Of a stretch of 64,000 bases of DNA, positions 3,683 through 63,992 are shown in pieces. Every line of letters starts with the position of its first letter. Within the stretch, counting starts at the first letter, position 1. The DNA comes from an uncultured virus (IMG/VR IMGVR_UViG_3300015608_002806) (taxonomy: Duplodnaviria > Heunggongvirae > Uroviricota > Caudoviricetes): the IMG/VR virus record IMGVR_UViG_3300015608_002806; one strand, 5' to 3'. The notes beneath the pieces were generated by a model. It worked only from the letters and a program-made list of their open reading frames with translations. It had not been told where the DNA came from and made no database searches. Made by a program: the position numbers and the translations under genes.

Positions 3683-4069
3683 TTATTTGACTCTTATTCC
3701 ATTTTTCCAATATTCTTGTCTTGTTGTATTTCCATCTTCATTATATACAATAATGGCAGGACCATTATCGTTATGACGTTTACCGTTTATATACCATGAT
3801 TTATATGCAACATTTCCATTTTCATAATATGAAATATAAGCAGGACCGTTCTCATTATGACGTTCATTATTTATACACCATTCTTTGTATTGAATATTTC
3901 CATTTGAATCATATACAATAACAGCAGGGCCATTCTCGTTATGCCATTTATTATTTTCATTTTTCCATATTAATTCAATTGTATATCCATCATTATTTAT
4001 TTGTGACGGTGGATTATATTTAATTCCATCAATTATTGTGTCTATTTTATAGAATGTATTTATGATCAT
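3683..4069 (-). CDS. HNENGPA-repeat (MORN-variant-like) protein, 3 repeats (family A)
   Basis: 128 aa; conserved N-cap MIINT.YK.DTIIDGIKYNPPS, 28-aa repeats, C-cap QEYWKNG. Confidence 0.9.
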   Translation of the reverse strand: MIINTFYKIDTIIDGIKYNPPSQINNDGYTIELIWKNENNKWHNENGPAVIVYDSNGNIQYKEWCINNERHNENGPAYISYYENGNVAYKSWYINGKRHNDNGPAIIVYNEDGNTTRQEYWKNGIRVK

Positions 4070-4076
4070 TTATTTA

Positions 4077-4460
4077 TTAATTCCAATTATTAAAATTTAT
4101 ATCAAAATATTTCTCTATTTGATGAACAATCTCAGTCATATATTCATATATCGAATAAGAAAATCTGTTTCCATCTGAAATATATATACTATTTGCTTTG
4201 CTGTAGGATCTTTTGAAATAAAAGAATCCAATAAATCCTTGATCTTTAATGAAATTCTCAACCTTTATCCATTCTATAAGAATGTCTCCATTTTTGTGAA
4301 ATACAAATTTTGTTGGTAAATCTTTATTTAATCTTTCTTTATTTTGATCATTTACAAATGTGAATCTTGTAAATTTTGGACAGCTATAAACATCAATTTC
4401 CTCATTTGATAATATTGGGTGTTGAAGTTGTAATATTTTTTGTTTTGTATTTATTTTCAT
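4077..4460 (-). CDS. Divergent M(K/I)INT...YFDIN family protein (family B)
   Basis: Starts MKINT; LPTKFVFHKNGDILIEW; ends KYFDINFNNWN. Confidence 0.8.
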   Translation of the reverse strand: MKINTKQKILQLQHPILSNEEIDVYSCPKFTRFTFVNDQNKERLNKDLPTKFVFHKNGDILIEWIKVENFIKDQGFIGFFYFKRSYSKANSIYISDGNRFSYSIYEYMTEIVHQIEKYFDINFNNWN

Positions 4461-4931
4461 TTATTTAATTTTTATTCCATTTTTCCAATATTCTTGTCTT
4501 ATTATGTTTCCATCTTCATCATATCCAATAATAGCAGGACCATTCTCGTTATGACATTTACCATTTATATACCATGATTTATATGAAACATTTCCATTTG
4601 AATAATATCTAATAACAGCAGGACCATTCTCGTTATGCAATTTATCATTTATCCACCATGATTTATATTTAACATTTCCATTTTCATCATATCCAATACG
4701 AGCAGGACCATTCTCGTTATGCCATTTATCATTTATCCACCATGATTTGTATTCAATATTTCCATTTAAATCATATACAATAACAGCAGGACCATTCTCG
4801 TTATGATATTTATTATTTTCATTTTTCCATATTAATTCAATTGTATATCCATCATTATTTATTTTCGATGGTGGATTGTATTTAATCCCATCAATTATTG
4901 TGTCTATTTTGTATAATGTATTTATGATCAT
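4461..4931 (-). CDS. HNENGPA-repeat protein, 4 repeats (family A)
   Basis: 156 aa; same caps and 28-aa repeats. Confidence 0.9.
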   Translation of the reverse strand: MIINTLYKIDTIIDGIKYNPPSKINNDGYTIELIWKNENNKYHNENGPAVIVYDLNGNIEYKSWWINDKWHNENGPARIGYDENGNVKYKSWWINDKLHNENGPAVIRYYSNGNVSYKSWYINGKCHNENGPAIIGYDEDGNIIRQEYWKNGIKIK

Positions 4932-4932
4932 T

Positions 4933-5283
4933 TTATTTATCCCATTTATTGAAATTTATATCTAAATAATTTTCAGTTTTGTTTTTGAATATTTGATCGC
5001 CAATAATATATTCATATTCACAAAAAAATTCATCATCATTTGATTTGGGATTATATATTTGAACATAATTGCATTTGTCTTGTCCTCTTTCAATATATTT
5101 TCCCGCTTTAAACCAAAGAAGTGCTATTAATTCATAATGACTTTCTTGTTCTATTCTTATAATAGATGGCTTGTTTGTGTCTATTTTATTATTATTGATA
5201 ACAATTATATCTGAGATAGGATGAAATTTTACATCCATTCCAGATAATAATTCATATGTTTTTGATGTTGTGTTTATTATCAT
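4933..5283 (-). CDS. Divergent M(K/I)INT...YFDIN family protein (family B)
   Basis: Start moved to MIINT at 5283 (ATGA overlap with the upstream stop); ends NYLDINFNKWDK. Confidence 0.78.
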   Translation of the reverse strand: MIINTTSKTYELLSGMDVKFHPISDIIVINNNKIDTNKPSIIRIEQESHYELIALLWFKAGKYIERGQDKCNYVQIYNPKSNDDEFFCEYEYIIGDQIFKNKTENYLDINFNKWDK

Positions 5284-5681
5284 TGTTCTGTATTCCAAAA
5301 TTGATAATTTATATCAAAATAATCCTCTGATACTGTCATCACCACTGTTGGTTTGTCTGCTGTTCCTTCTCTTATTTCATATATATATTTATTAATGTTT
5401 TTAAAAATACAATTTGGTTGATTTGGATTTTTTCGAGCTACGTATTTCACACCTTTCCACCAATAATCAGCAGGAATTCCTGGTGACATCCAAGACAATG
5501 AAACAAGTCCATTTGTACCAAAAACAAATACTGTGGGTAAATCTTGAAACAATCTTTGTTTTGTTGTTTCAGGATTAAATTTACACAAAGATACACTATC
5601 AATATTTTTTATTTGTAAACCTGGAATGGAAGATATATTATAATATATATTATTTATTTTATTTAATGTATTGATCAACAT
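5280..5681 (-). CDS. Divergent M(K/I)INT...YFDIN family protein (family B)
   Basis: Start moved to MLINT at 5681; LPTVFVFGTNGLVSLSW and QPNCI motifs; ends EDYFDINYQFW. Confidence 0.78.
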   Translation of the reverse strand: MLINTLNKINNIYYNISSIPGLQIKNIDSVSLCKFNPETTKQRLFQDLPTVFVFGTNGLVSLSWMSPGIPADYWWKGVKYVARKNPNQPNCIFKNINKYIYEIREGTADKPTVVMTVSEDYFDINYQFWNTEQ

Positions 5682-6030
5682 CTTTTTCAGCAACATCCTT
5701 TTGTTCTAAAACAAATCCACTTTTATCAAGCCAATATATTTTGTATACATTGTTTTCATCATCAAAATAAATTCTATTTGGTTTATTGTTTGATCTTATG
5801 TGATACATATCGCCATCAAACCATTCAATATTTATAATTTTTCCTAAATTAATATTAAATTCAACTATTGTCGGCCTATCATAATAAAAAAATATTTGCA
5901 TTTGTTCTTTATATGTTAAGAAATCAATATATTTTTTTTCTCCTGCTCCTGATATTTTAATATTCATTCTGCTAAACATATCTGTGTTATACATGATTCC
6001 AAATGTTTTTTTAAAGGTATTTATTTTCAT
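5659..6030 (-). CDS. Divergent MKINT family protein (family B, lacks YFDIN tail)
   Basis: Starts MKINT; RPTIVEF...GKIINIEW and KPNRIYF motifs. Confidence 0.75.
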   Translation of the reverse strand: MKINTFKKTFGIMYNTDMFSRMNIKISGAGEKKYIDFLTYKEQMQIFFYYDRPTIVEFNINLGKIINIEWFDGDMYHIRSNNKPNRIYFDDENNVYKIYWLDKSGFVLEQKDVAEKDVDQYIK

Positions 6031-6339: not shown

Positions 6340-6726
6340 TTATTTAATTTTTCTTCCATTTTTCCAATATTCTTGTTTTCCTATATTTCCATTTGAATAA
6401 TATCTAATAACAGCAGGGCCATTTTCGTTATGTAGTTTGCCATTTATACACCATTCTTTGTATTGAATATTTCCGTTTTCATAATATGCAATAAAAGCAG
6501 GACCATTCTCATTATGACGTTCATTATTTATACACCATTCTTTGTATTGAATATTTCCATTTGAATAATATTGAATAAAAGCAGGACCGTTATCATTATG
6601 ATTTTTATCATTTTCATTTTTCCATATTAATTGAATTATATATCCATTATTAATTGTTTGTGATGGTAGATTGTATTTAATTCCATCAATTATTGTATCT
6701 GTTTTGTAAAGTGTATTTATGATCAT
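6340..6726 (-). CDS. HNENGPA-repeat protein, 3 repeats (family A)
   Basis: 128 aa; same caps and repeats. Confidence 0.9.
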   Translation of the reverse strand: MIINTLYKTDTIIDGIKYNLPSQTINNGYIIQLIWKNENDKNHNDNGPAFIQYYSNGNIQYKEWCINNERHNENGPAFIAYYENGNIQYKEWCINGKLHNENGPAVIRYYSNGNIGKQEYWKNGRKIK

Positions 6727-7062
6727 TTATTTTTCCATAATGGATAAAAGTCTATCAGGAGGCATTGGTACATAAATTAATTCACCATTTTTAACATGTA
6801 AATCTGTTGGTTTTTTATTATAAAACGCAATCAAAAACCACAATGAAGGATCATTATAGTATTTTGATGCTAATTTAAAAAATTTCTCACCAAATTTCCA
6901 AGTAATTGGAATTAAATTAAATTCCAATATTTCATCTTCTGTTGGATAATTATATTCTTTTGAAATATAATGTGTTATTGATTTCATTTCTCTTTGAGAG
7001 AGAAAAGAAGAATAAGATTCAGATTTTGTTATTTTTTCATCTCTTGATTCATTTCTATTCAT
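6727..7062 (-). CDS. LysM-like baseplate protein (P2 gpX / T4 gp53-like)
   Basis: GEKFFKLASKYYNDPSLWFLIAFYN...GELIYVP LysM-type pattern; lies downstream of tape measure and tube initiator. Confidence 0.72.
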   Translation of the reverse strand: MNRNESRDEKITKSESYSSFLSQREMKSITHYISKEYNYPTEDEILEFNLIPITWKFGEKFFKLASKYYNDPSLWFLIAFYNKKPTDLHVKNGELIYVPMPPDRLLSIMEK

Positions 7063-7067
7063 TTTTT

Positions 7068-7391
7068 TTACTCAATTGGCCATGGAATATTAGTTTCTTG
7101 TTCAAATTTTTTAACTGCTTCAATTGTTTTCTTTTCTTGCTCTATTAAGCTTTTTGAAACAAATCCTTCTTTTTGAGCCAAGAGAAAGAATTTTCTTTCT
7201 TCTTTTAAAGCATTAATAAATGCATCAATTTGAGATTTTGTTCCTTTTAATTTAATATTCTTATTTTCATTTAATTTTGAATTTTTAACAAACCACTTAA
7301 TCCATTCGCCAAATGTGGCAAGCCATGATTCATTTAATTCATCAGAATTATATGAATTTTCATTTTCAAAAATAATTGTAAATTTATTCAT
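7068..7391 (-). CDS. Hypothetical phage protein
   Basis: 107-aa co-oriented ORF ending FEQETNIPWP. Confidence 0.7.
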   Translation of the reverse strand: MNKFTIIFENENSYNSDELNESWLATFGEWIKWFVKNSKLNENKNIKLKGTKSQIDAFINALKEERKFFLLAQKEGFVSKSLIEQEKKTIEAVKKFEQETNIPWPIE

Positions 7392-7403: not shown

Positions 7404-7706
7404 CTATTTAATCTTTATTCCGTTTTTCCAATATTCTTGTCTTATTATGTTTCCATCTTCATCATATCCAATAATAGCAGGACCATTTTCGTTATGTTCT
7501 TTACCATTTATATACCATGATTTATATTCAACATTTCCATTTGGATAATATTCAATAAAAGCAGGACCATTCTCGTTATGACATTTACCATTTTCTTTTT
7601 TCCACATTAATTCAATTACATTTCTGTAATTATTTATTTGTGATGGTGAATTGTATTTAATCCCATCAATTATTGTGTCTATTTTATATAATGTATTTAT
7701 TTTCAT
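7404..7706 (-). CDS. HNENGPA-repeat protein, 2 repeats (family A)
   Basis: 100 aa; same caps and repeats. Confidence 0.9.
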   Translation of the reverse strand: MKINTLYKIDTIIDGIKYNSPSQINNYRNVIELMWKKENGKCHNENGPAFIEYYPNGNVEYKSWYINGKEHNENGPAIIGYDEDGNIIRQEYWKNGIKIK

Positions 7707-8639
7707 TTATTTAATTCCGCTTTTTCTAAGTAAATTATTCATTGGATTATTCTTATTTGAAGGCTCAAAAGAATCAGCGTTTAACAAATCATGCGTGATC
7801 GAATCAGTAATTTCACCAGAGCGAATTGGATTTTCTATTGTTTGCGTTGGATTATCTGAAAATTCACCCTTGTTTACAACAAAACTTCTATTTAAACCAT
7901 ATGGGAAAATAATATCGGCTTGGCCTCCATCATTTGAATTTCCTGATGCTGAAGAGTCATCAAAACCTAATTGATGATTATGTAATACTCTATATGATAT
8001 TTGTATTTCAATTATCTTTGGATACATTGACAAAGCATCTCCTTTATCTGTTGCTTGACCTTGTTTTGTCATTCTATCAATATATCCACTATTAACTTCA
8101 ACATAGGTACCATATTGTAATAACATTTGAACGTTAAATCCACCATCAATAAAACCATACAATCCACCACCAGTTTTAACATCTTGTATTAAATTACCAA
8201 ATTTCAATCTTAACAACGGGGCTGCTTTAATGTCTGATATAGAGAGATTAGAAAAATTTTCTCCATTTTTAATTTGATATCCTGTTGTTGAAATTTTTGG
8301 ATACAAAAAATTTGTTAACATACTTATTTTTCTAAGATTTTCTCTAGCTGATTGTAAATCATGAGCTGGAATTCTCCATGTTAAATTGTATTTTCTTCTT
8401 GTTTTGGAAAAATTATAAATACCATCCATTTTTCCCCAAACATCTTCACTTTCCCAATCACTTTCATATTGGTCACTCATTGATTCGAGCATTGCCCAAA
8501 ACTCAACGGTTGGAACCCCATTGCTTGTTGATTTTTCTTGAATTGAATTAACATATTCAAATCTCAACAAAGCCATTCCTTCTTCGTGTGCTCTAATATA
8601 ATTTAAATCAAGATTCGATGATGATGTGTGTTTTGCCAT
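7707..8639 (-). CDS. Putative tail tube initiator / baseplate-tube junction protein
   Basis: Directly downstream of tape measure; tube-fold-like motifs (W...DVWGKMD.IY.F..T.R, APLLRLKFGNL, PKIIEI.ISY). Confidence 0.6.
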   Translation of the reverse strand: MAKHTSSSNLDLNYIRAHEEGMALLRFEYVNSIQEKSTSNGVPTVEFWAMLESMSDQYESDWESEDVWGKMDGIYNFSKTRRKYNLTWRIPAHDLQSARENLRKISMLTNFLYPKISTTGYQIKNGENFSNLSISDIKAAPLLRLKFGNLIQDVKTGGGLYGFIDGGFNVQMLLQYGTYVEVNSGYIDRMTKQGQATDKGDALSMYPKIIEIQISYRVLHNHQLGFDDSSASGNSNDGGQADIIFPYGLNRSFVVNKGEFSDNPTQTIENPIRSGEITDSITHDLLNADSFEPSNKNNPMNNLLRKSGIK

Positions 8640-11086
8640 TACAAATTGCTCCTACCGGAGACTGGATTAATATTATTAAGTTCTTTTAATGCAACCTTTC
8701 CAACTTCACGACCATCAATTTCAAGAGAAATTGATTGATTGGATTTATTGTTGGACAATGCATTCAATATAGATGACATATTTTTAATCAATTCAGCCAT
8801 TTGTGAATTGTCATTTGTTTTTGTGTTTGCTAATGTTATTATTTCTTTGTTTATTTCTTTAAATTTTTCAATATTTTCACTCTTTACTTGAGATACACCT
8901 TGTATTGTATTTCCAAGACCCGAAAGGAACACGCTCATTGCAGGGTTGACACCAGTTAGACTCAAAGAAGAAATTTGTTCAAACATTTTTGAAGCATTTT
9001 CCAAAGAATCATCAGAGATTGAACTAAATGATTTTGAAAAAGAACTAGCAACTTTTGTAATTGAATCAGCCAATTTACTCATTTTTGGTTCATAATCAGC
9101 CATGCCAACAATCTGCTTCATCATTTCAATTCTTTGTTTTTCTTTTGATAAACCAGAAAAACCTTCATCAACCTCTTTAATTGCTTTACCAAATCCCCAA
9201 ATAGCAAGAGATATCAACCCAATTGAAGCAGCTGCATAAAAAGCACCCTGTAGAACATTGTAAGTTATTGCTTTTAATGCTCCAGCTATTTTTGAAACCA
9301 ATTTAGAAAATCCAGAACCAACTTTATCTGCAACGTTTACAACCACTTCTCCTGTGGCTTCAATTGGTTTTTTTAATCCCTTTAATTTATCGATGAATCC
9401 AGAAAAAAATGAAAATATTTTTCCTTTGAACATCATTACAATTAATCCAACAGTAATCAATCCAGTTCCGTATCCATGAGTAATTTTATCAAGCAACAAG
9501 AAAGCATCAGCAATCCATCCAATAACAGTCACAATTGGTCTAACAACCACAGCAAATGCTCTCATTATTGCCTGCAATTTTTCCATTATACTAGCAGTAT
9601 CGGCAGCTCTTTCTCTTGCTTCTTCCTCTGAAACCGCATTTGCCATCAAAGATCTTCTGTAGTCCTCCAAGGAACCAGTAAATATCTTGGTTGCAGTTTC
9701 CATGTTGGAAATACCAGCAGCATTGGCTACTGCTTGTTTTTCTTGTGCATTCAATGCTGTCCACACTTTACCAGAGGCATTAAACATTTTAATTAAAGTT
9801 TCAACCCTTTCATTTTCGCTCATTTTCATCATTTGAATCGTGTTCAAATAAGGGCCACCCAAAATAGCATTCAATCTGGCCACTTTGGGAACCGCTTCAT
9901 CAAAAGAATCGTAACCAGCAACAACATCAAGAAGCTCAGAAGTTTCGAGCCTCAATGATTTTGCTTGTGCTGTTAATTTTAAAAAAACATCCTTTGCTGA
10001 TTCGCCTCTTTTAACCAATTTTGGCATTGATTCATTGAAATCAGAAACAGCTTTGGTTAAAGTGATACCAAGAGAATCAGCCATGCCTCTTAATTGAGAA
10101 TTGAATTTCTTGACTCCTTCATCGCTAGTCTTCAGTGTTTCTTTTAATATTGATACTTCTTTAGCGTAATCATTTGTTGAAACACCTAATTTTTCCATTA
10201 TTATAGCAGAATTCAAATATGTTTTTTGTTGCTCTTCACTCAACAAAGAAAATGATTTAAATTCTGTCAATAAAGACCTAACAGAAGACGCAACATCTTC
10301 AGCTGAAACAGCAAGATCTCTATTGTTCTCATAAGCTGAAAAAATTAAATCATTGTGTTTTCCAATAATTCCTGTTGATCTCTCAAATGAATTAATAGCA
10401 GAATCCCACGCAATAACTTGTGCATAAGTTGATTCTATTGTTTTTGAAAAAACATTATCCAACAAATTAAGTGGATTAAATAATTTTTTAATGGTTTCAA
10501 TGGTGTTCAAAACAGCCATTGAAAATGCCGGTATTGTTTCTGTGGCTCCTTCTTGTAATGGTTTAAAGAAAGATTGAAACATTGAATTGCTTCTGTCCTC
10601 AACAAGCAAAACTCGGCTAACAAAGCTCTTAACGCTGCTCTCTTGTTCTTGAGAAAGTTTTTTTAATGCTTCTAAATTTTCAGTGGAAAGAGCAAGCTTT
10701 TTTTCGTTTTGTAGATTTTCTGCTCTTAATCTTGCAAGCTCATTATCAGCGTTTTGTTTTTTTTCATTTGCATCGTCAGCTTCATCCTTAACAAGATCCT
10801 CAAGTATCTTTCTTTGTTCGAGCATTGCTTTATTGGTTGCAATAATTTTTCTTCTTAATTCTATATTTGAATCCAATTGATTTTGATAATATTCACCAGC
10901 TGTACGACTCAATCTTTCAATAACTTCATCATTTTTAAAACCATTATTCATGTTATCAATAAATTTATTTGTTTCTTGAATGATGTTATTTATTTTTTTA
11001 AATTCTGTTTGAACAGTTTCGCTATATTCTTTAACAGATTCTGTTAATTCATTAATTAAAGCTTTTTGTTCATTATTGATATCCAT
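8639..11086 (-). CDS. Tape measure protein
   Basis: 815 aa, helical and Ala-rich, with hydrophobic segments and a C-terminal ISLEIDGREVG motif; follows tube and chaperone genes. Confidence 0.82.
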   Translation of the reverse strand: MDINNEQKALINELTESVKEYSETVQTEFKKINNIIQETNKFIDNMNNGFKNDEVIERLSRTAGEYYQNQLDSNIELRRKIIATNKAMLEQRKILEDLVKDEADDANEKKQNADNELARLRAENLQNEKKLALSTENLEALKKLSQEQESSVKSFVSRVLLVEDRSNSMFQSFFKPLQEGATETIPAFSMAVLNTIETIKKLFNPLNLLDNVFSKTIESTYAQVIAWDSAINSFERSTGIIGKHNDLIFSAYENNRDLAVSAEDVASSVRSLLTEFKSFSLLSEEQQKTYLNSAIIMEKLGVSTNDYAKEVSILKETLKTSDEGVKKFNSQLRGMADSLGITLTKAVSDFNESMPKLVKRGESAKDVFLKLTAQAKSLRLETSELLDVVAGYDSFDEAVPKVARLNAILGGPYLNTIQMMKMSENERVETLIKMFNASGKVWTALNAQEKQAVANAAGISNMETATKIFTGSLEDYRRSLMANAVSEEEARERAADTASIMEKLQAIMRAFAVVVRPIVTVIGWIADAFLLLDKITHGYGTGLITVGLIVMMFKGKIFSFFSGFIDKLKGLKKPIEATGEVVVNVADKVGSGFSKLVSKIAGALKAITYNVLQGAFYAAASIGLISLAIWGFGKAIKEVDEGFSGLSKEKQRIEMMKQIVGMADYEPKMSKLADSITKVASSFSKSFSSISDDSLENASKMFEQISSLSLTGVNPAMSVFLSGLGNTIQGVSQVKSENIEKFKEINKEIITLANTKTNDNSQMAELIKNMSSILNALSNNKSNQSISLEIDGREVGKVALKELNNINPVSGRSNL

Positions 11087-11407: not shown

Positions 11408-12337
11408 TTATAGTTCTGGGTATAAAAAACGTGAAGAAATTGGTGCATCCATCTCCATTTCAATTTCACAATGATTGCACTTCCAATCTGAAACAATCTC
11501 GAATGATGGTTGAATTTTTTTGAGAGTCTTTTTGAAATGCCATAGATCTGCTGATTTTAAATTGTCATGAAGATCCATCTTTTGTTTGGTGGTTGGCTCC
11601 ATGTCATTAACAAAACGCACCAAATCGCAAAAAACGTGGGAGAAATCGACATTCTTGTCAACAGCAGTCATTTTCTCAATTTTGCAAATAACTTTTTGAT
11701 TTGAGACATATGTTGCAATTTTGAGCTTTGACACTGGTAAAACAAATTCAAAACAACCAGTTGTTTCATTGAAGTCAACACCAGACTGATCTGACAATGA
11801 AAAGTAACCATTTGATGATTTTTGTTTATTCAATGGAAAACTATATTTGTCTTTTTTTAGACATGATGGACATGTAATTTGAGCATCATAGTCCTCGCCA
11901 AAAGCTGAAATTCTTGCAGCAACGAGAATTGCGCTTCTGTCTGCATCACAAATTAAATCAAAATTATTTTCTTTTTTGAGTTCATCACTCAAAAGAAGTG
12001 ATTTAATAAAATTTGTTACAACAATACCTGATTTGATAAAATCTTTATTTGCAAGAATTTTTTCTTCTTTGCCTGATACTTCTTTAATTTCAATGTGGGT
12101 TTTGTTGTGAAGCGGATGATCAACAGAGTAAACCATGCCCTTTGATGGCAACTCTACCAAAATAGAAAAGGGTGGAAGATTCATTTCTTCATATTTTGAA
12201 TCTTTTGTTAGGGCTTCAATTGGTTCCGTGTATAATGTTTCTTGTTTTAATTGTTGTGTTTGTTCTTCTTTTTGCTTTAGAGATTCAGGCAACCCAAGAA
12301 TGTTCTTGAATTTATCCTGATTATTTCTTTCTGTCAT
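11408..12337 (-). CDS. Baseplate hub assembly protein / tail assembly chaperone (T4 gp26-like)
   Basis: VELPSKG..Y, EEKIL, DR.AILVAARI.AFG.DY...ITCPSC and C-terminal CNHC. Confidence 0.72.
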   Translation of the reverse strand: MTERNNQDKFKNILGLPESLKQKEEQTQQLKQETLYTEPIEALTKDSKYEEMNLPPFSILVELPSKGMVYSVDHPLHNKTHIEIKEVSGKEEKILANKDFIKSGIVVTNFIKSLLLSDELKKENNFDLICDADRSAILVAARISAFGEDYDAQITCPSCLKKDKYSFPLNKQKSSNGYFSLSDQSGVDFNETTGCFEFVLPVSKLKIATYVSNQKVICKIEKMTAVDKNVDFSHVFCDLVRFVNDMEPTTKQKMDLHDNLKSADLWHFKKTLKKIQPSFEIVSDWKCNHCEIEMEMDAPISSRFLYPEL

Positions 12338-12352: not shown

Positions 12353-12907
12353 TTAAAAGACTTCAGGTTCAGCCCAATCGAATCTAAGTGTCATTTCAAT
12401 TGTTAAAATTTCATGACTTTTATAATCCAATGTTCCAAAATTTAATTTTGAAAACCAAGGATTTTTCAGTGTCCAAGTTTCAATAGGGTCGCCATTATGA
12501 TTTAATTGTGTAATTTTAACTTGACCAATTGCAGTAGCAGCTTCTTTTTTGGAAACTGTTCTCTCTGCGTTTTTACCAGTTTCATCTGTGCCAATCCACT
12601 TATTAGGAAAATAATAGCCTGAATCTTTCAACATTTTCATTAAAGCTCTTGCTACGTTTGGATTAACAGCATCATAAAATGTAAAATCAATTGGATCCCA
12701 TTTTACTTTGCCGGGGTAATAAAAGGTGTGATTGAGCCAATTGGCCTCTGCTTCACTTATTTGAGCAGATGGTTTCTTGGCAGCTGCCACCGCAAATCTT
12801 GGAATGACAGCACCTTCACCACCTTGACCTGTACCAATGTCAACAACGAATGTGTGTTGTCTTTTGGGTTCGCTTAAAACTGATGACCAAAAATTACCGT
12901 TTGCCAA
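12353..12907 (-). CDS. Tail tube protein (T4 gp19-like)
   Basis: EPKR..F, YPGKVKWDPI.FTFYD, IETWTL, FG.LDY, LRFDWA; follows sheath; TTG start with AGGAG SD. Confidence 0.88.
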   Translation of the reverse strand: MANGNFWSSVLSEPKRQHTFVVDIGTGQGGEGAVIPRFAVAAAKKPSAQISEAEANWLNHTFYYPGKVKWDPIDFTFYDAVNPNVARALMKMLKDSGYYFPNKWIGTDETGKNAERTVSKKEAATAIGQVKITQLNHNGDPIETWTLKNPWFSKLNFGTLDYKSHEILTIEMTLRFDWAEPEVF

Positions 12908-12928: not shown

Positions 12929-15814
12929 TTATGTCAATTCAGAAAAACTTGCGCCTTGTGGTGTAATATTAAAATCAAGACCGATAAATTCAATAGCTTT
13001 TGTTGGTTTTACGAAAATTTTACCATATGCAATATTGTTGTCAATATTATCAGGCGTATTTGTTTTTTGATTAAACACTAATTTATATTCTTGAATTCCG
13101 TTATCAGACAAAACATTTTGTAGAATAGGATCTGCCAGAGAAACAAATCTATTCCACGTTACTGATGCATTGGCATCAAATACAACTTGTAATGCAATTT
13201 TAGAAATTGTTTTTTCAAGATACAACATAGCTCGTCTAACATTAATTCTATTAAGTGCAGAATTTGTTGATAATAGAGTCTTTTGTCCCCATACAACGAT
13301 TCCCGCATTTGAAACGTTTGAAATTGCATTGATTTTTGCATCATACAATTTATCTCTGTCTGATTGTCGAAGTTTCTTTACAAGAGAAACAACATTTAAA
13401 CCAGCATTTCCATTTGATACGTTGCCCCTTGAGAAACCAGCAGGAGCATAATAAGGAGCAGCAACAGCATCATTGTAGGCCAATGTTCCAAGAGCAATGA
13501 CAGACGGAGGAACAGGAACAAGAGCATTGTTTATTGAATCTCTAACGTTAACCCATGAAGAATAAGCAGCGGCATAAGAAGTGTTTAGCGCTCTTGCTTT
13601 CATGACATCCGCTGTTGTGTCAACGCTAAAGGTTCTTTGTGCAACACTATTTGCGTTCTCGCTTCTTGGTTGATAATCAGAGGCGCAATCAATAATTGCC
13701 ATTGCATCACCTCTGTCCTCACAAACGGCCATCAATCTATTTGTTATTGATGTATTTGTTACACCAGGAATTGCTGCGAGGTTGAATTCAACATCCTCTG
13801 GGTCAGAAATTATATCAATTGCTCTTTTTAATGTATTGAATTCATATGATGTTTTTTCGGTCACTGAATCCAGTGCTGTGTTTCTGAATGGTTCAATTTC
13901 TGTAACATCGAAGCCATCAAATCCACCAGCAAGAACGGTTGTAAAATTATTAAACCCAGCATCAAGAACAGTTTGATAAGATGAGCTATTTAATCCAGTT
14001 CCTGCTGCTCTTGCTCCTGAAACCCATTGGCCTTCTGTTGTTGAATCAGATAAATATCTTACATCATCCAATGTGAACACCCAAGAATATTGAGTTCCAT
14101 TTGAATCAGATGGTGCAAAGCTATCGACATTTGCTGGTTTAACTCTTAGAATGTCCTTAACTGATCTTGCAAACTTGCCGCTTGAATCATCAGTGTAAAC
14201 ACCAAAGTACGCTTGTGATGGTGATGCCAATGAACCTGACCGGGTGTCGGCTCTTAGTTGTAATTTTGGATAAATAACAGAGCCTGAGAAGTTGCCAGAT
14301 CCGCTTGGAATCATGAAAACGCCGTACTTAGTTGCAGCTTCAAGTTGAATTGGGTTATATGTTTGATTTGCACCTTTGACAAATGGTGTTTCTGCTGTTA
14401 GATTTGGTGAAATGGTCGCTGTAAAATAAGCTTTGAAATTGGTTGATCCAGATATAATTGAGAAGTTTTTGTATTGAACGGGACCATAAACACCGAATGG
14501 CAGAGATTGAGGAATAACGGTTTTATTCGCAACCTTGTCTGAAGCCTCAACTCTAATATATTTTGATCTGTTTTCAAACAAACCAAACTCATCATTCAAC
14601 AGGGTTGTGGTGTTGAATGAGGTATATTTGTCACCAATTTTAACACCAATATAATTTTCAGGATCATCTGGGTTCAAATTGCATCCAACAAATTGCTCGA
14701 CAATTTTTGGATATGCATCTGTGTCATCAATTTTTCTTACAACAACGTCAAATGAGCCATATGGTGTGACTTCTGTGTTGTCAGAAATTCTTATATTTCT
14801 TATTGAAATTTTAATATTTGATTGATTCCATTCACCAGAATCCAAGCTGTGAAACTTGAATAGTTTTGGCATTGTGGTTGGGGCAAATGTGGTTGTGGCT
14901 TCACCTGTCGAAAAATCTTGAGAGAAGAACCAACCAGTTTGTGCGTTTTGGCTATCAATTCTTCTATCTGAATGCTCTGGTGTTCCGCCTGATAATTGAA
15001 GTGCTAAAATAACACCGTTCCACTTTGTCGCGGCTCTTAATTGATCACATTCAGGTGAAGAATTTATGAAATCCTCAAATGACTCACCCAAGAAGTATTT
15101 CTTAACATCAGAAGCTGCATAAATTGAAGTATTTACAGCTGTTGGATTGGTGTTGAAAACCTTTCTAATGAATCTGTCACTTGATGGAGTGAAATTAAAT
15201 CTACTGTTTTCAACAGTTACACCATTTTCATCTCTAATGAGAACCTTGAACTCTCTATCTGCATTTGAATCCAAAAGACCTGAAGTTCCGCTGTAATAAG
15301 TATTTGTTCCAATTAATGTGCCTGACAATGCAATTGAACCAGTTTTAATGTACCAAATAGCGGCCAAAGTACCAGTGCATTGAGCGGAACCGGATGGAAA
15401 AACAAACAAACCATATGCACCACCAGTTGGATTAGCAGCATTAATTGAGCCAACCTTCCAACCAGCTTCACCAGAATCAGTTGTTGCTTCTGGGTGTTTA
15501 ACACCAAGCAATCTAACATAAGTGAGAGTGTTTGATGCTTTCAAAACAGCTTGAGCTGCATAAGCACCATAAATAGGACCAAGAATTTGATTGTCTCGCC
15601 ACACATCATTGACAGCATTTTGTGGGGTTGGTTCACCAAACACATCAACGAATTCAGCAAATGATGAAACCGTAACTGGTTTCATTGCTGGACCTCTTTG
15701 GGCTCGTCCTATTACTACTGTTCCAAGTTCTCCAGGAGTTGCAGGAATTTGTGAATTATCAATTTCTGCAATTTTGACACTGGGGGAAATGAATTTAAAT
15801 TTGTTTACTGGCAT
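12929..15814 (-). CDS. Tail sheath protein (T4 gp18-like)
   Basis: FISPSV...EID.S, GRAQRGP, VPPS, APAG..RG, WGQKTL, LNRINVRR, KPTKAIEFI.LDF. Confidence 0.95.
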   Translation of the reverse strand: MPVNKFKFISPSVKIAEIDNSQIPATPGELGTVVIGRAQRGPAMKPVTVSSFAEFVDVFGEPTPQNAVNDVWRDNQILGPIYGAYAAQAVLKASNTLTYVRLLGVKHPEATTDSGEAGWKVGSINAANPTGGAYGLFVFPSGSAQCTGTLAAIWYIKTGSIALSGTLIGTNTYYSGTSGLLDSNADREFKVLIRDENGVTVENSRFNFTPSSDRFIRKVFNTNPTAVNTSIYAASDVKKYFLGESFEDFINSSPECDQLRAATKWNGVILALQLSGGTPEHSDRRIDSQNAQTGWFFSQDFSTGEATTTFAPTTMPKLFKFHSLDSGEWNQSNIKISIRNIRISDNTEVTPYGSFDVVVRKIDDTDAYPKIVEQFVGCNLNPDDPENYIGVKIGDKYTSFNTTTLLNDEFGLFENRSKYIRVEASDKVANKTVIPQSLPFGVYGPVQYKNFSIISGSTNFKAYFTATISPNLTAETPFVKGANQTYNPIQLEAATKYGVFMIPSGSGNFSGSVIYPKLQLRADTRSGSLASPSQAYFGVYTDDSSGKFARSVKDILRVKPANVDSFAPSDSNGTQYSWVFTLDDVRYLSDSTTEGQWVSGARAAGTGLNSSSYQTVLDAGFNNFTTVLAGGFDGFDVTEIEPFRNTALDSVTEKTSYEFNTLKRAIDIISDPEDVEFNLAAIPGVTNTSITNRLMAVCEDRGDAMAIIDCASDYQPRSENANSVAQRTFSVDTTADVMKARALNTSYAAAYSSWVNVRDSINNALVPVPPSVIALGTLAYNDAVAAPYYAPAGFSRGNVSNGNAGLNVVSLVKKLRQSDRDKLYDAKINAISNVSNAGIVVWGQKTLLSTNSALNRINVRRAMLYLEKTISKIALQVVFDANASVTWNRFVSLADPILQNVLSDNGIQEYKLVFNQKTNTPDNIDNNIAYGKIFVKPTKAIEFIGLDFNITPQGASFSELT

Positions 15815-45445: not shown

Positions 45446-45861
45446 TTATTTTTATGAATTTTGTTTTCTATCCGATCAAGTCTATCATTTAATACATTCC
45501 AAAATTTTTGATTAATTTCATCTTGAGTTGTTAAAATTGTATTAGCTTTTTCAATTTGAATTTGTTGAGATTGTATTAAATCAACCAAATTAGAATTTAT
45601 TTTTTCTAATTTTAAAATCTTTTCATCTCTTATGTTGTCTTTGTAACCTGATAAAATATTATATGATTCAATTACACCAATTTTAATAATTGCCTCTTCT
45701 GAGTTCTTTTTTGCAATATCAATATCACTAATATAGCCTTTTGCATTAAAGCCCCAACCAAATATTAGCATAAATATACCAAAAATGCCAGGAACAACAG
45801 TCAACAAAATCCACGCAATTGATTTAATAATTTTTTCTTTTTTTGTGACTTTTTGTTTCAA
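45442..45861 (-). CDS. Membrane-anchored coiled-coil hypothetical protein
   Basis: N-terminal TM segment; C-terminal RLDRIENKI. Confidence 0.65.
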   Translation of the reverse strand: MKQKVTKKEKIIKSIAWILLTVVPGIFGIFMLIFGWGFNAKGYISDIDIAKKNSEEAIIKIGVIESYNILSGYKDNIRDEKILKLEKINSNLVDLIQSQQIQIEKANTILTTQDEINQKFWNVLNDRLDRIENKIHKNK

Positions 45862-61900: not shown

Positions 61901-62505
61901 ATTGGATTGCCAATAGAGCCAGAATTTGTCCATAAACTAACAAGCGCCTCATAATCAGTTGATTGTCTTGATTTATATCCATCTTTTTTAACCCAGAACT
62001 GAACAGTAAAACCATCTTCAGGATAGAAACCCAAATTAATATCTCTTGTTGATGATAAATAAATATTATCTACATTTAATCCACTTTGAGACATTTGAAT
62101 ATATCTTGTGTTTGTATATTTTTTAAATATTGAAGAAACAGTATCTGTTAATGATCCTATATTTGTATCAAAATATATACATCCTCTTGATTTTGGATAA
62201 ATATTTTCATATATATAATCATCCACATAAGATGAAGATATATGCCATTCAATTATTTCTTTTTGTGAGCCGTCATATGGAAATGTATTGTATATTCTTG
62301 AAAAAGAATTATTGTAATATTCTTTTGCTAAACCAAATTTAACAAAATTATCAGGAATTGAAAAATTTATATTTGGAAAATTCTTTTTTTTATAAGAATT
62401 TGCAGCAACAATTAGACCAGTGCTTTCAATAGATGAAGTAAATTCATCTAATGATGTATTTGTTTGTATTGCTTTAGATTCTTCAAAAAGTGATTTAATA
62501 CTCAT
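58951..62505 (-). CDS. Large baseplate wedge-like protein with LamG domain
   Basis: FTVQFWVK...LWING...IDDFRFWKRALT.EEI; FDEI...I, YKSKGT..S......FG (P2 gpI / T4 gp7-like); VIE.HILERNK. Confidence 0.7.
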   Translation of the reverse strand: MSIKSLFEESKAIQTNTSLDEFTSSIESTGLIVAANSYKKKNFPNINFSIPDNFVKFGLAKEYYNNSFSRIYNTFPYDGSQKEIIEWHISSSYVDDYIYENIYPKSRGCIYFDTNIGSLTDTVSSIFKKYTNTRYIQMSQSGLNVDNIYLSSTRDINLGFYPEDGFTVQFWVKKDGYKSRQSTDYEALVSLWTNSGSIGNPINCLNLYTWNISNYIAGNASLGAENGSTDIFTGNSGTFKLLGLGWKQITAVVSYTNSSGHKSVLSLWINGQKSNTTITNNQTGLVLGQLISLTGTIGSVCSSSLSDGYNPLYDTYIDDFRFWKRALTEEEIKKNWYCNVYGGTNSDNEIISSSLGVYYKFNEGITQTSSIDANILDYSGRNTNGYFIGYSSNFRNTGSAYIDYGLYEQQDPIIYNFHTDVLYTQSYYSDIGQEYDNKNGNSFLNLFPQHIQDEDYDTNQDLMKLSHIVGSKFDEIFLEISELTKVRNVNYLESGSYNFEVASRLLESHGLLVSDIFSTISENEYFNNKDERIIFERNIEKIKSHIYKNIYNNLLSIYKSKGTQESFRNVFRSFGVDDDLLKIKIYSDKEKFKITNNRNITLRKKKFLDLSGLNNYNNINCNVFSHVLNENIGDEIAYIPFNTNENDSGGLCFETTINFPKFDNELDLFYRQIPESYTSASLFGLIPVGYYLEGNGTWFQNTNETNTEKYDGTFCSSSIIFISKKEKNSSKAKFILRLSGGNGIKSAETEYLDVYSDTQWTLALQATRSSDLIFSSYPNEYNNCLFLYGNKVAGGEIVDSFVISATIDQNTFEGYPNFTISQWMAMDKKPFIGAYRTNFTGSVVCPTLAKFISSKIYVNTFDVDILKNHAIDVFNYGTISSSRPFNIIQNVAEYNNTAYGTGIPQLYLPNYMTPIMVWDFENITGSNSNGNLYVESLISGTSYLHNSITDESDYAYHFDKKITGKGYGFNVNDDSMIDNNYVVVGKNREIGNFNGSDFIQIDDDESYYFDKQKHPSKFYYTIENSMYSVINEEILNLFHSTEEFNDLIGNEYEKYRHSYKSLEKIREFFFSKLNNVKKVDSYLRYYKWFDNSISEIIRQIIPASMNSSQGVLNVIESHILERNKVKYYESFIKTKEYNFDGRIINTAAMQNQWAESQRGEKIGKFTWKAQEQNGIYPQKILKIR

Positions 62506-62724
62506 TTATTTAATTCTTATCCCATTTTCCCAATATTCTTGTCTTGTTATATTTCCATCTTCATCATATACAATAATGGCAGGACCATTCTCGTTATGAA
62601 AATGACCATTTTCATTTTTGCATATTAATTCAATTGTATATCCATCATTATTTATTTTCGATGGTGGATTGTATTTAATTCCATCAATTATTGAATCAAT
62701 TTTGTATAATGTGCTTATTATCAT
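62506..62724 (-). CDS. HNENGPA-repeat protein, 1 repeat (minimal family A member)
   Basis: 72 aa: N-cap, single repeat and C-cap. Confidence 0.88.
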   Translation of the reverse strand: MIISTLYKIDSIIDGIKYNPPSKINNDGYTIELICKNENGHFHNENGPAIIVYDEDGNITRQEYWENGIRIK

Positions 62725-63992
62725 TATTTTACTAAAAATTTAAAACTAAATGGTAATTCTTTTTTATGATTATCAATTATATTAAGAAATTTTATTTTAT
62801 ACATATAATTTGGCTCAAATAATGACATATTCAAATCAAAATAATTGCCCTCTGAATTGTAAGATAATTTTGTAAATTCAACAGTTCCAGTTCCATATGG
62901 TATAACATTATATCCATCAATTAATTTATCAACTTTATAATATAAATTCTCTAATATTTCATTTATTTGTTTTTCTTGATATGTTAAATAATAATTAGGT
63001 TTCCAATTTTTTCTAGTAATAGAAAGTTTTAATCTTGGTTTTTCTATTATTGAATATTCCTGTTTTAAATTTTTTATATTTACAACAAACTCTTCATCAA
63101 CAGAATAAGAATCATCCATAAAATTTTTCATTTCTATTGAAGAATTATAATAATTTTCAGAACCAGAAAACCAAAAATCATATATTGTTCCTGTTAAATT
63201 TGTATAAAAAGAACAAGAATATACTCCAGTTTTACAATAACCACCTGTAAATGTTTCAAATGCTGGTGCTTGTCCAGATGAATTTGTGTAAATAGACATA
63301 TAAATAGAACCTGTTCCTATTGATGGAATATTTTTTAGCACGCCTCTAATATAATTATAAAAATAAATAGTATTTATGTTTTCAATTCCTGCATTTGATG
63401 CAGATGTGAAACAATTAATTCTATCATCTTCAATACAATCATTCCATCTTGCTTCAATATATGGTCGTAAATAAAAAAACTCTGACGTTCTTGAAAAGAA
63501 TTTTTTATTATAATAACTTTGTGTTGTGTTCTGATATGATGATGAAAACAATACAGCAAATCCATTATTTTGCACTGTTCCTGAAATTAAAGCTCTAACC
63601 ATTGAAGAAATATCAACATAAAAATCTTCAGAGCCAGATGAAAAAAATTGTTGAACAGAATACGTTGAAGACAACAAATCTCCACCAGGAGTTGTCCACA
63701 ATACATTGTCTGATGATGATAACCAATTAGCAGACCCAAGATCTGTAAAATTATATTGATCTTGTCCAGAACCTTCTGTAAAAGATTTATTCAACAAAGT
63801 AGCAATCAAAATATAATCTTTTGGAAGAGTTTCGGCATGTCTTGCATTAGACAGTTTTAAATAATATTCAGCTGAAGCTGGTATAGTCTGTGCATTTATA
63901 TCAGCTATTATTTCATTGATTGGAAAATGCAATAAAATTCTGCTTTGTTTATTTAAAAAACTTGCGGTTTCTAGTCCGTTTTGATTCCACAA
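62724..63992 (-). CDS. Structural protein with DNRLRE-like domain (5' end probably outside the window)
   Basis: SRILLHF, W.TPGGD, N.GF.V, KKFFSR, PYIEARW.D; C-terminal FTKLSY..EGNYF.L.M..F.P...Y. Confidence 0.62.
   Translation of the reverse strand: MWNQNGLETASFLNKQSRILLHFPINEIIADINAQTIPASAEYYLKLSNARHAETLPKDYILIATLLNKSFTEGSGQDQYNFTDLGSANWLSSSDNVLWTTPGGDLLSSTYSVQQFFSSGSEDFYVDISSMVRALISGTVQNNGFAVLFSSSYQNTTQSYYNKKFFSRTSEFFYLRPYIEARWNDCIEDDRINCFTSASNAGIENINTIYFYNYIRGVLKNIPSIGTGSIYMSIYTNSSGQAPAFETFTGGYCKTGVYSCSFYTNLTGTIYDFWFSGSENYYNSSIEMKNFMDDSYSVDEEFVVNIKNLKQEYSIIEKPRLKLSITRKNWKPNYYLTYQEKQINEILENLYYKVDKLIDGYNVIPYGTGTVEFTKLSYNSEGNYFDLNMSLFEPNYMYKIKFLNIIDNHKKELPFSFKFLVK

What the first reader, a model, noticed from the sequence alone, without database searches (positions are those of the whole stretch)
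3683..62726. Repeat genes occupy AAATAAATG stop/start junctions, with the motif present on both flanks
Seen (coding strand): the 5' junction is exactly AAATAAATG for six copies (starts 4069, 6726, 7706, 25420, 32675, 45445). It is a one-A variant for two (AAATAAAATG at 4931, AAATAATG at 62724) and divergent only at 31804. The 3' ends read AAATAAATG (3683, 4461, 6340, 62506), AAATAATG (44975) or AAATGA overlaps (24866, 32289). Removing a copy such as 62506-62724 would leave a clean, translationally coupled junction. An unoccupied AAATAAATG junction exists at 29342-29350. Inference: crossover or target-site duplication at a Lys-stop-Met motif, a 'safe harbour' that breaks no ORF and preserves translational coupling. 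Caveat: such junctions are common in AT-rich phages.
Basis: partly seen in the sequence, partly recalled or inferred. Interest (0 to 1): 0.85.

Follow-up and report, generated by a model that had tools for sequence, protein, structure and literature searches.

The report
Repeat genes wedged between phage genes
A T4-like phage carries about ten copies of a small repeat-protein gene, each slotted exactly between the stop of one gene and the start of the next, and related phages lack them at the same spots, so this looks like a tidy way of spreading a gene family without breaking neighbouring genes.

Summary
Nine co-oriented copies of one gene lie on the minus strand. Each has a 43-aa head, 0-4 units of 28 aa and a 29-aa cap (72-184 aa), with a MORN-type beta-hairpin fold. 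They sit in the late operons of an AT-rich T4-like phage with almost no spacer. AAATAA directly precedes the start codon in 6 of 9 copies, against 2 of 50 independent other genes (p=5e-5). None of the 9 has a Shine-Dalgarno core, against 22 of 52 other genes.

New here:
- A tenth, diverged copy and five remote paralogues.
- Two syntenic relatives (64% terminase or sheath identity) lack the gene at all six comparable sites. Three of these sites are clean, with both flanking orthologues kept.
- Relative site A reads AAAAAATAATG, as if the bare ATG-to-TAA reading frame had been removed.
- Three further contigs of related phages show no copy.

The copies are lineage-specific insertions at (AAAT)n-GA stop/start junctions. 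There are no inverted ends, no fixed-length duplication and no recombinase in the window. Target preference judged from the relatives is not significant (3/6 vs 5/28, p=0.13).

Best reading (about 0.5): short-homology recombination at the junction, filtered by translational coupling. This resembles PeSL cassette shuffling in T4-type phages. Circular intermediates could not be tested.

The parts
3683..4069 (-). repeat gene, 128 aa (head + 2 units + cap)
   Evidence: The 5' flank is TAATAAATAA|ATG. The upstream gene stops 7 nt earlier. The 3' end is AAATAA|ATGAAAATAAATAC.
4461..4931 (-). repeat gene, 156 aa (3 units)
   Evidence: With 3683..4069 and the paralogues 3278, 4077 and 4933 it forms an alternating tandem array.
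6340..6726 (-). repeat gene, 128 aa (2 units)
   Evidence: The 3' AAATAAATGA is followed by a non-functional ATGAGATAA and a 13-nt gap.
7404..7706 (-). repeat gene, 100 aa (1 unit)
   Evidence: It starts ATGAAA in the window but ATGATC in the 99.98%-identical contig G001, within a cluster of four differences at 7681-7726 that spans the 5' junction.
24866..25420 (-). repeat gene, 184 aa (4 units; units 1/3 are 98.8% identical and 2/4 90.5%, a recent 2-unit duplication)
   Evidence: Pfam MORN_2 30.0 bits against a cut-off of 29.6. Ends in an AAATGA overlap.
31250..31804 (-). repeat gene, 184 aa (4 units); the one copy without the 5' motif
   Evidence: The relative's orthologous upstream gene ends CTATAA, also without the motif.
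30898..31224 (-). diverged tenth family member, 108 aa
   Evidence: Matches the repeat protein at E=2e-14 and 44% identity in the identical contig G001. Translation. Absent from G002 together with 31250..31804.
32289..32675 (-). repeat gene, 128 aa (2 units)
   Evidence: Empty site in G002 reads TCAAATGAAAATTAA.
44975..45445 (-). repeat gene, 156 aa (3 units)
   Evidence: Empty site in G002 reads AAAAAATAATG.
62506..62724 (-). repeat gene, 72 aa (0 internal units)
   Evidence: A 128-aa protein with the same head (1 difference) and an identical cap exists in another assembly (P0010).
3278..6030 (-). array holding five remote paralogues (3278..3682, 4077..4460, 4933..5283, 5280..5696, 5659..6030), which share the start M-[KIL]-I-N-T, interleaved with two repeat genes
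   Evidence: Start pattern ATGAWMATAARYAC: 13 minus-strand matches, all at starts of these genes and of the repeat genes; 14 matches on both strands against 2.2 expected. BLASTP links within the group. hhalign against the repeat family: probability 82.7%, E=9.5e-6 over 85 columns.
29342..29350 (-). unoccupied AAATAAATG stop/start junction (S21-like gene to 152-aa gene)

Best explanation
The window is part of an AT-rich (about 27% GC) T4-like myovirus. Its lineage has recently multiplied one small gene. The gene encodes a MORN-type beta-hairpin repeat protein: a 43-aa head, 0-4 units of 28 aa and a 29-aa cap.

Each copy is a bare reading frame running from ATG to AAATAA, with no promoter, spacer or ribosome-binding site of its own. 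New copies arise when the phage's own recombination or replication machinery joins the gene's ends to an A-rich stop/start junction of the backbone (...AAATAA, ...TAATG, ...AAATGA). The gene's 3' end is AAATAA, followed by ATGA in a tandem or circular form. The homology used is 4-10 nt.

The result is backbone-AAATAA|ATG...AAATAA|ATG-backbone, or a slipped AAATGA form. Only inserts that leave both neighbours intact survive. The copy is then translated by termination-reinitiation after the upstream gene, and the downstream gene stays coupled.

After insertion the copies keep exchanging sequence by gene conversion, and they gain or lose 84-nt units.

Shown: the copy structure, the junction sequences, their statistical excess, absence of the copies in relatives, absence of Shine-Dalgarno cores, and exchange between copies.
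Inferred: the direction of change (gain), the use of short homology, any circular intermediate, and translation by coupling.

The protein's role is inferred only from its form. An invariant scaffold with six hypervariable positions per unit suggests a diversifying binding module expressed with the late genes.
For: Phage identity: T4-type terminase, sheath, tube, baseplate, portal and prohead-protease families.

Architecture: head 43 aa + n x 28 aa + cap 29 aa, with n = 0-4 in 9 of 9 copies. In the 21 internal units, 9 positions are invariant and 6 are hypervariable (7, 9, 12, 17, 22, 27).

Fold: AF2 model with mean pLDDT 88.7, built of beta-hairpins. The best Foldseek matches are MORN proteins: SET7/9, MORN1 and radial-spoke proteins. 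Pfam MORN_2 scores 30.0 bits.

Junction statistics:
- AAATAA before the start: 6/9 vs 2/50, p=4.7e-5.
- Upstream neighbours ending AAATAA: 6/9 vs 7/44, p=0.004.
- Gap 0: 7/18 vs 2/43, p=0.0018.
- Shine-Dalgarno core: 0/9 vs 22/52, p=0.012.

Empty sites: A, B and C in G002, with both flanking orthologues present; D, E and F in G003. The repeat protein finds no match in G003 (63 kb), G004 (128 kb), G005 (152 kb) or G006 (15 kb).

Orthologous upstream genes in the relatives already end AAATAA at A, D and F. Site C, where the relative has CTATAA, is the one window copy without the motif.

In G002, 8 MORN-like genes of the same superfamily have ordinary spacers, mostly purine-rich and Shine-Dalgarno-like by eye. 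They lack AAATAAATG, and 7 of the 8 cluster in an accessory region. The abutting form is therefore a derived trait of the expanded subfamily.

Copies are 82-88% identical in DNA. Mean dS is 0.22 and dN/dS is 0.58. Backbone orthologues in the relatives are only 22-79% identical in protein.

Exchange between copies: four clustered differences at 7681-7726 across the 5' junction of the 7404 copy. Proteins from other assemblies combine the head of one window copy with the cap of another, or differ in unit number (P0002, P0004, P0010, P0018).
Against: - Homology of 4-10 nt is very short, and no experiment or read evidence shows that it is used.
- Within single copies the flanking direct repeat is not above shuffled expectation in this low-complexity DNA.
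- Judged from the relatives, targets ending AAATAA are 3/6 vs 5/28 (p=0.13). At B and E the relative's upstream gene does not end AAATAA.
- At D, E and F the downstream neighbour differs between window and relative, so those three are not clean empty sites.
- The relatives are distant (64% identity in conserved proteins), so junction sequences may have drifted.
- Gene conversion between copies makes the low dS an unreliable clock.
- No tandem junction between two repeat genes, and no circle, was found. The pattern scan of IMG/VR returned only the two junctions between a repeat gene and a paralogue already known in the same phage.
- No remnants of the repeat gene lie at other junctions.
Confidence: 0.5

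Rival explanations
1. Selection filter only. Copies are placed by random illegitimate recombination with no preference for the motif. Only inserts lying exactly between a stop and a start survive in tightly packed late operons. The AAATAAATG look then follows from the gene's own ends (ATG..., ...AAATAA) plus the commonness of Lys-TAA gene ends in AT-rich DNA.
For: 13 of 53 non-repeat genes end AAATAA. In the relatives 8 of 34 orthologues do. The preference judged from relatives is not significant (p=0.13). Flanking repeats of single copies are not above shuffles. The upstream genes show no extended similarity to the repeat gene's 3' end beyond AAATAA (Mann-Whitney p=0.11).
Against: Upstream neighbours end AAATAA in 6/9 cases vs 7/44 (p=0.004). 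In two copies (4069, 45445) the AAATAA is present although it is not the upstream gene's stop, so a bare need for a stop codon does not explain it. The junction variants AAATGA, AAATAATG and AAATAAATG differ by whole or part AAAT units, as expected from crossovers or slippage inside the motif.
Confidence: 0.25
2. The genes are ancestral at these sites and were lost from the relatives. Their similarity to each other reflects concerted evolution by gene conversion, not recent spread.
For: Gene conversion between copies is seen. Deletion between the flanking AAATAA(ATG) repeats would also leave clean junctions. G002 carries 8 more distant family members, one of them in the same structural block.
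Against: It requires exact loss at all 6 comparable sites in two relatives. The family is also absent from the four contigs G003-G006, about 358 kb in all. G002's family members have their own spacers and lie at other places.
Confidence: 0.08
3. The gene is a true mobile element. An enzyme encoded elsewhere in the phage or host (nuclease, transposase or recombinase) recognises AAATAAATG and inserts the cassette with a target-site duplication or by homing.
For: Nine or ten dispersed copies sit at one kind of site. The motif is on both flanks in several copies. The sites are empty in relatives.
Against: There are no inverted ends. The duplicated length varies from 4 to 10 nt. No transposase, integrase or homing-nuclease family appears in the 56 window proteins scanned; PHROGs covered 28 of these genes. 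The only nuclease-associated feature is an intein in the portal gene. The rest of the genome is not held, so a trans-acting enzyme cannot be excluded.
Confidence: 0.07
4. Chance. The motif is only AT-rich low-complexity sequence and carries no information.
For: The coding strand is A-rich. Seven minus-strand AAATAAATG occurrences lie at no called gene start, not counting the one just after the 6340 copy.
Against: 0 of 100 shuffles reach the observed count. The excess lies specifically at junctions flanking repeat genes (p=4.7e-5).
Confidence: 0.03

Closest known systems
PeSL (promoter-early stem-loop) cassette shuffling and mini-circles in T4-type phages (Arbiol et al. 2010, PMC2839356; abstract and passages read)
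   Same: The phages are T4-type. Small non-essential reading frames are present or absent between close relatives. They are bounded by short repeated signals, which are proposed to act as recombination patches and target insertion to harmless intergenic spots. A circular intermediate is proposed, and for PeSLs it was shown by inverse PCR.
   Different: PeSLs are roughly 50-bp transcription signals (a sigma-70-like promoter plus a terminator hairpin). They lie in hyperplastic early regions and make each cassette transcriptionally independent. Here the patch is a 4-10-nt translation signal (stop/start junction). The cassette has no promoter, terminator or ribosome-binding site. It sits inside late structural operons, and one gene family occupies all the sites.
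Mycobacteriophage mobile elements MPME1/2 (described in PMC3029335; passages read)
   Same: Very small elements (439 bp) carrying one short reading frame, present or absent between nearly identical phages.
   Different: MPMEs have inverted terminal repeats and add 6 bp at one end, and they can land inside genes. The copies here have no inverted ends and sit exactly between genes.
MORN_2 / YwqK-type repeat proteins (Pfam PF07661)
   Same: Pfam MORN_2 hit just above the cut-off. Metagenome homologues were named 'antitoxin component YwqK' by their source. The predicted hairpin-repeat fold resembles solved MORN proteins.
   Different: No partner toxin gene lies nearby. The 28-aa period, the conserved M-I-I-N-T head, the phage late-operon setting and the ten-fold copy number are particular to this case. 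That YwqK pairs with the YwqJ deaminase toxin is recalled and comes from no call here.
Repeat-containing multigene families of large viruses (MORN, ankyrin etc. in amoebal giant viruses; PMC5753266, search listing only)
   Same: Lineage-specific expansion of a repeat-protein family within one viral genome.
   Different: Those are eukaryotic viruses with independently expressed genes. No stop/start junction placement is reported in what I saw (title and start of abstract only).

Membership tests
MORN_2 repeat / YwqK-like proteins | Sequence match to Pfam PF07661 above the gathering score | tested here: met
   The 184-aa copy scores 30.0 bits against a cut-off of 29.6, E=3.8e-7. This is marginal. 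The 72-aa copy gave no hit.
MORN_2 repeat / YwqK-like proteins | Stacked beta-hairpin repeat fold like solved MORN proteins | tested here: inconclusive
   The AF2 model (pLDDT 88.7) is all hairpins. The top Foldseek rows are MORN proteins, but E is 0.0086 or worse and TM 0.37-0.43. A profile search against PDB sequences found 0 hits.
YwqJK-type toxin-immunity pair | Adjacent cognate toxin gene | tested here: not met
   No toxin or deaminase family in the 56 window proteins scanned with Pfam. PADLOC gave 0 hits for the 5 proteins scanned.
Transposon / IS / MITE-like element (including MPME) | Terminal inverted repeats | tested here: not met
   The best inverted match between the ends is 4-8 nt in 9 of 9 copies. 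It is at or below the shuffled mean in eight; the 31250 copy (8 nt against a mean of 6.1) stays within the shuffled maximum of 12.
Transposon / IS / MITE-like element (including MPME) | Fixed-length target-site duplication | tested here: not met
   The shared flank varies: AAAT, AAATAA, AAATAAATGA or none.
Transposon / IS / MITE-like element (including MPME) | Transposase encoded in the element or the genome | tested here: inconclusive
   None in the window. The rest of the genome is not held.
PeSL regulatory cassettes of T4-type phages | Flanking promoter plus stem-loop terminator | tested here: not met
   14 of 18 flanking junctions have a gap of -4 to +2 nt, which leaves no room for such signals. 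No promoter or terminator scan was run.
PeSL regulatory cassettes of T4-type phages | Indels between relatives bounded by the repeated signal | tested here: met
   Empty sites A-F in G002 and G003, at or beside AAAT-type junctions.
PeSL regulatory cassettes of T4-type phages | Circular excision products | not testable with these tools
   This needs reads or inverse PCR. The contig pattern scan found only junctions already known.
Integron gene cassette | attC recombination site and an integron integrase | tested here: not met
   No integrase family in the window. No inverted-repeat structure at the 3' ends.
Free-standing homing endonuclease gene (seg/mob type) | The inserted reading frame encodes a nuclease domain | tested here: not met
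   The repeat proteins hit only MORN_2 above a curated cut-off; other rows are sub-threshold.
Moron | Own promoter and terminator flanking the inserted gene | tested here: not met
   No spacers. A Shine-Dalgarno core is present in 0 of 9 copies.

The most novel reading that the evidence does not exclude
The copies are cassettes of a previously undescribed kind: a bare reading frame that excises and re-inserts, probably as a mini-circle whose only joint is AAATAA|ATGA, at translational stop/start junctions. The translation signal itself would serve as the recombination site. No integrase is involved, so the cassette is expressed and harmless wherever it lands. The phage would use this to seed a fast-diversifying set of MORN-type binding proteins into its late operons. 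The conserved but disordered M-I-I-N-T head (pLDDT below 50 for residues 1-9) is shared with the remote paralogues and with G002's MRLNI genes. It could be a common targeting leader, for example for packaging into the capsid, as in the T4 internal proteins (that parallel is recalled, not tested).
Probability: 0.2. Interest if true: 0.8.

Novelty: new variant of a known kind. Interest (0 to 1): 0.55.

Why it matters
How phages gain genes inside tightly packed, translationally coupled operons without damaging them is only partly understood. The best-documented case uses repeated transcription signals (PeSLs). This locus offers a natural series of nine or ten insertions of one gene, with matching empty sites in relatives. 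Here the only shared boundary is the stop/start signal itself.

If short A-rich stop/start junctions do act as landing pads, gene boundaries in AT-rich phages would be recombination hot spots by their sequence alone. That would help explain why phage mosaic joints so often coincide with gene ends.

The gene family is also a compact example of a diversifying repeat protein: an invariant scaffold, six hypervariable positions per unit, and a variable unit number. Its target is unknown.

Tried and rejected
- Near-identical contigs are no use for empty sites. G001 (44,480 nt) is 99.98% identical to the window with no gaps. The 21,311-nt and 18,535-nt contigs are 99.6-100% identical with the same copies.
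- megablast of window 8000-24000 against the GenBank phage collection: no match.
- Single-protein scans of IMG/VR: the 409-aa neighbour found only the same phage. The 1184-aa neighbour found nothing, so the 62506 site could not be compared.
- Metagenome scan with the repeat family alignment: 0 confirmed of 137 stretches. Metagenome scan with the prohead protease: 11 loci, all short or distant and none covering a repeat site.
- L021 (43% match) is a different 21-22-aa MORN-type repeat protein in an unrelated context. BK070118.1, a Helicobacter equorum prophage record, gave one weak match (33.7%) and was not followed further.
- Footprints of the repeat gene's 3' end in the last 30 nt of upstream genes: not significant (median 9.5 vs 8.0, p=0.11).
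- Remnants of the repeat gene at other junctions: none better than E=0.002 in low-complexity DNA.
- Tandem junctions between two repeat genes, or circle junctions, in IMG/VR contigs: only the two known junctions between a repeat gene and a paralogue in the same phage.
- A T4-late-promoter-like reading of ATAAATAC in the first codons: the long spacers upstream of structural genes show no shared motif of that kind by eye. Dropped. TATAAATA as the T4 late promoter is recalled.
- Read-through fusion to the upstream protein: only 4 of 9 copies are in frame with the upstream gene (gap 0), near the one-third expected. Dropped.
- Rfam: 0 families in the window. tRNAs: 0. NCBIfam: only sub-threshold rows.
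- Earlier notes of this scan: none for this genome. The one sequence look-alike is unrelated.
- Literature searches found no description of this gene family or of stop/start-junction cassettes. That is the whole basis for saying I did not find it in print.

Full report
**What the window is.**
From about 3278 to the end, all genes lie on the minus strand. GC is 21-37% per 4-kb block, about 27% over most of the window. PHROGs and Pfam identify a T4-type structural and packaging module:
- large terminase, 37011..38663
- portal, 33721..36999
- prohead protease, 30062..30631
- tail sheath, 12929..15814
- tail tube, 12353..12907
- baseplate protein, 11408..12337
- primase, 40446..41384

The closest named phages are distant. 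The terminase is 34.8% identical to Flavobacterium phage vB_FspM_immuto, and megablast finds nothing. The window's own assembly is not held.

**The repeated gene.**
Nine reading frames share one plan:
- a 43-aa head (MIINTLYKTDTIIDGIKYNPPS...H)
- 0, 1, 2, 3 or 4 units of 28 aa (consensus NENGPAVIRYYPNGNVEYKSWYINGKRH)
- a 29-aa cap ending ...QEYWKNGIKIK

This gives lengths of 72, 100, 128, 156 and 184 aa. Across the 21 internal units, nine positions never vary. Six positions (7, 9, 12, 17, 22, 27) are highly variable.

The 184-aa copy just passes Pfam MORN_2 (30.0 bits, cut-off 29.6). An AlphaFold2 model of the 128-aa copy, built with 16 aligned sequences, has mean pLDDT 88.7 and consists of stacked beta-hairpins. 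Only residues 1-9 fall below pLDDT 50. Its best Foldseek matches are MORN proteins (SET7/9 N-domain, MORN1, radial-spoke proteins), but they are weak, with E of 0.0086 or worse. A profile search of PDB sequences finds nothing.

Copies are 82-88% identical in DNA. Over head plus cap, mean dS is 0.22 and dN/dS is 0.58. All copies are intact. These are therefore working genes under partial constraint.

- A tenth, diverged member lies at 30898..31224 (108 aa; E=2e-14; translation).
- Five further genes at 3278-6030 begin M-[KIL]-I-N-T, as the repeat genes do. The start pattern ATGAWMATAARYAC has 13 minus-strand matches, all at starts of these 14 genes; on both strands there are 14 matches against 2.2 expected.
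- These five link to each other by BLASTP. They link to the repeat family by profile comparison (probability 82.7%, E=9.5e-6 over 85 columns).
- The relative G002 has eight MORN-like genes. Six of them begin MRLNI, MKLNI or MRINI with different codons. The head is therefore a protein-level signature, not a DNA site.

**Checking the junction claim.**
The excess is real:
- AAATAAATG occurs 23 times against 8.6 expected.
- AAATAA directly precedes the start in 6/9 repeat genes. The same holds for 2/50 other genes once the three genes that merely follow a repeat gene are set aside (p=4.7e-5). Counting the tandem pair once gives 5/8 vs 2/50 (p=2.3e-4).
- Upstream neighbours end AAATAA in 6/9 cases against 7/44 for other genes (p=0.004).
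- Exact abutment occurs at 7/18 flanking junctions against 2/43 others (p=0.0018).
- No repeat gene has a 4-nt Shine-Dalgarno core within -18..-3, against 22/52 other genes (p=0.012).

Two details show that the motif is more than "Lys-stop-Met". At 4069 and 45445 the AAATAA is present although the upstream gene stops elsewhere. After the 6340 copy the motif's ATG starts no gene. The junction forms are AAATGA, AAATAATG, AAATAAATGA and AATAAATAAATG. They read as one to three AAAT units followed by GA or G.

**Empty sites in relatives.**
IMG/VR contig G002 (38,655 nt; terminase 64% identical) is collinear with window 28886-51052.
- Site A: the orthologues of 45442..45861 and 43761..44975 overlap by one base, reading ...GATAAAAAATAATGTAC... 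The window has ...AAAAATAA|ATGATC...ATTAAATAA|TGTCAT... The difference is exactly the reading frame from ATG to TAA, flanked by AAATAA.
- Site B: the relative reads ...TCAAATGAAAATTAAAC..., and the window reads ...AATAAATAA|ATGATC...ATTAAATGAAAATTAAAT... This fits a crossover within AAAT.
- Site C: the relative has a 12-nt spacer with a ribosome-binding site after ...CTATAA. The window has ...TTATAA-TT-ATG, then the 184-aa copy and the 108-aa member. This is the one copy without the motif.

Contig G003 (63,037 nt; sheath 64% identical) is collinear with window 6727-26689. It has no repeat gene after the orthologues of 25421..26689 (site D; both end TTAAAATAA), 7707..8639 (site E; the relative ends GGAGAATAA) or 6727..7062 (site F; the relative ends AACAAATAA). 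At D, E and F the downstream neighbour differs from the window's, so these three sites are less clean than A-C.

The repeat protein finds no match in G003, G004 (128 kb), G005 (152 kb) or G006 (15 kb). G002 has its own, more distant MORN-like genes (9 matched stretches; 8 genes). They have ordinary spacers and no AAATAAATG. Seven of the eight cluster at 31-38.6 kb, and one sits in the structural block at a place that is unoccupied in the window.

**Limits of the target-preference argument.**
Using the relatives as a proxy for the state before insertion, orthologues upstream of the six sites end AAATAA in 3/6 cases against 5/28 for other orthologues (Fisher p=0.13; binomial p=0.074). For single copies, the direct repeat shared by the two flanks is not above shuffled expectation in this A/T-rich DNA. 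The last 30 nt of the upstream genes show no extra similarity to the repeat gene's 3' end (p=0.11). No remnants of the gene lie at other junctions. The window therefore proves an association between the gene and the motif. It does not yet prove that the motif guides insertion.

**What it is not.**
- There are no terminal inverted repeats.
- There is no fixed-length duplication.
- No transposase, integrase or nuclease family appears in the 56 proteins scanned.
- There is no room for promoter or terminator signals.

It therefore fails the tests for an IS or MITE-like element (including the mycobacteriophage MPMEs; passages read in PMC3029335), an integron cassette, a homing-endonuclease gene and a moron.

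**Ongoing exchange.**
- The 99.98%-identical contig G001 differs from the window at only 9 positions. Four of these cluster at 7681-7726, across the 5' junction of the 7404 copy, and change its start from ATGATC to ATGAAA.
- Proteins from other assemblies look like alleles of window copies with other unit numbers: P0002 against the 24866 copy, and P0010 against the 62506 copy. Others have the head of one copy and the cap of another (P0004, P0018). Still others have unrelated heads on the same units and cap (P0019, P0029, P0030). Their genomic context could not be seen.
- Within the 24866 copy, units 1/3 (98.8%) and 2/4 (90.5%) show a recent two-unit duplication.

**Mechanism.**
The best-supported account is short-homology recombination between the gene's ends and A-rich stop/start junctions. 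Selection then keeps only inserts that leave the neighbours intact and coupled. The copy would be translated by reinitiation after the upstream stop.

The closest documented parallel is PeSL-mediated cassette shuffling in T4-type phages. There, repeated promoter and terminator signals bound the indels between phi1 and RB49, and mini-circles were shown by inverse PCR (PMC2839356, abstract and passages). Here the boundary is a translation signal about one fifth as long, the cassette has no signals of its own, and one family fills all the sites.

The rivals are, in order: selection alone, ancestral presence with loss, a dedicated enzyme, and chance. Each is weighed in its own section.

**Function.**
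Function is inferred from form only. The protein is a hairpin-repeat binding scaffold with hypervariable positions and a variable unit number. It is co-transcribed with late genes and has a conserved, probably disordered head. Some metagenome homologues were labelled YwqK-type antitoxin by their source, but no partner toxin is nearby.

**Verdict.**
I file it as a new variant of a known kind, namely short-signal cassette shuffling in T4-type phages. Interest 0.55.

Noticed in passing
window 33721-36999 (-): The portal gene encodes 1092 aa, against 688 aa in relative G002, where it aligns as two blocks. Pfam finds an intein splicing domain over residues 325-693 inside the T4-type portal. This is probably an intein, perhaps with an endonuclease insert.
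   Followed up: partly
window 29345-29587 (-): An 80-aa protein matches ribosomal protein S21 just under the Pfam cut-off (26.5 vs 27 bits). It has orthologues at the same place in G002, L042 and L065.
   Followed up: no
window 3347-3546, 9239-9470, 1997-2008: Differences between the window and near-identical contigs are clustered: 18 differences, including a 3-nt indel, within 200 nt of the paralogue 3278..3682, and 12 within 230 nt of 8639..11086. They look like short recombination tracts between strains.
   Followed up: no
window 6727-7391 vs G003 32589-33253: The two small genes 7068..7391 and 6727..7062, which lie between two repeat copies, are in the opposite order in relative G003.
   Followed up: no
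window 26690-27176 and 2734-3277: These are two long stretches (487 and 544 nt) with no convincing reading frame. The second holds TATATG-type simple repeats and a G-rich end. The first 3.3 kb of the window is more GC-rich (37%), and its reading frames on both strands have no family match.
   Followed up: no
proteins P0019, P0029, P0030 (other assemblies): The same 28-aa units and cap are joined to unrelated N-terminal domains of about 50-120 aa. This suggests the repeat array also moves as a domain.
   Followed up: no
window 11087-11159 and 15815-15883: The spacers before the 8639..11086 gene and the sheath gene contain hairpin-plus-T-run sequences that look like terminators by eye. No promoter or terminator scan was run.
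   Followed up: no
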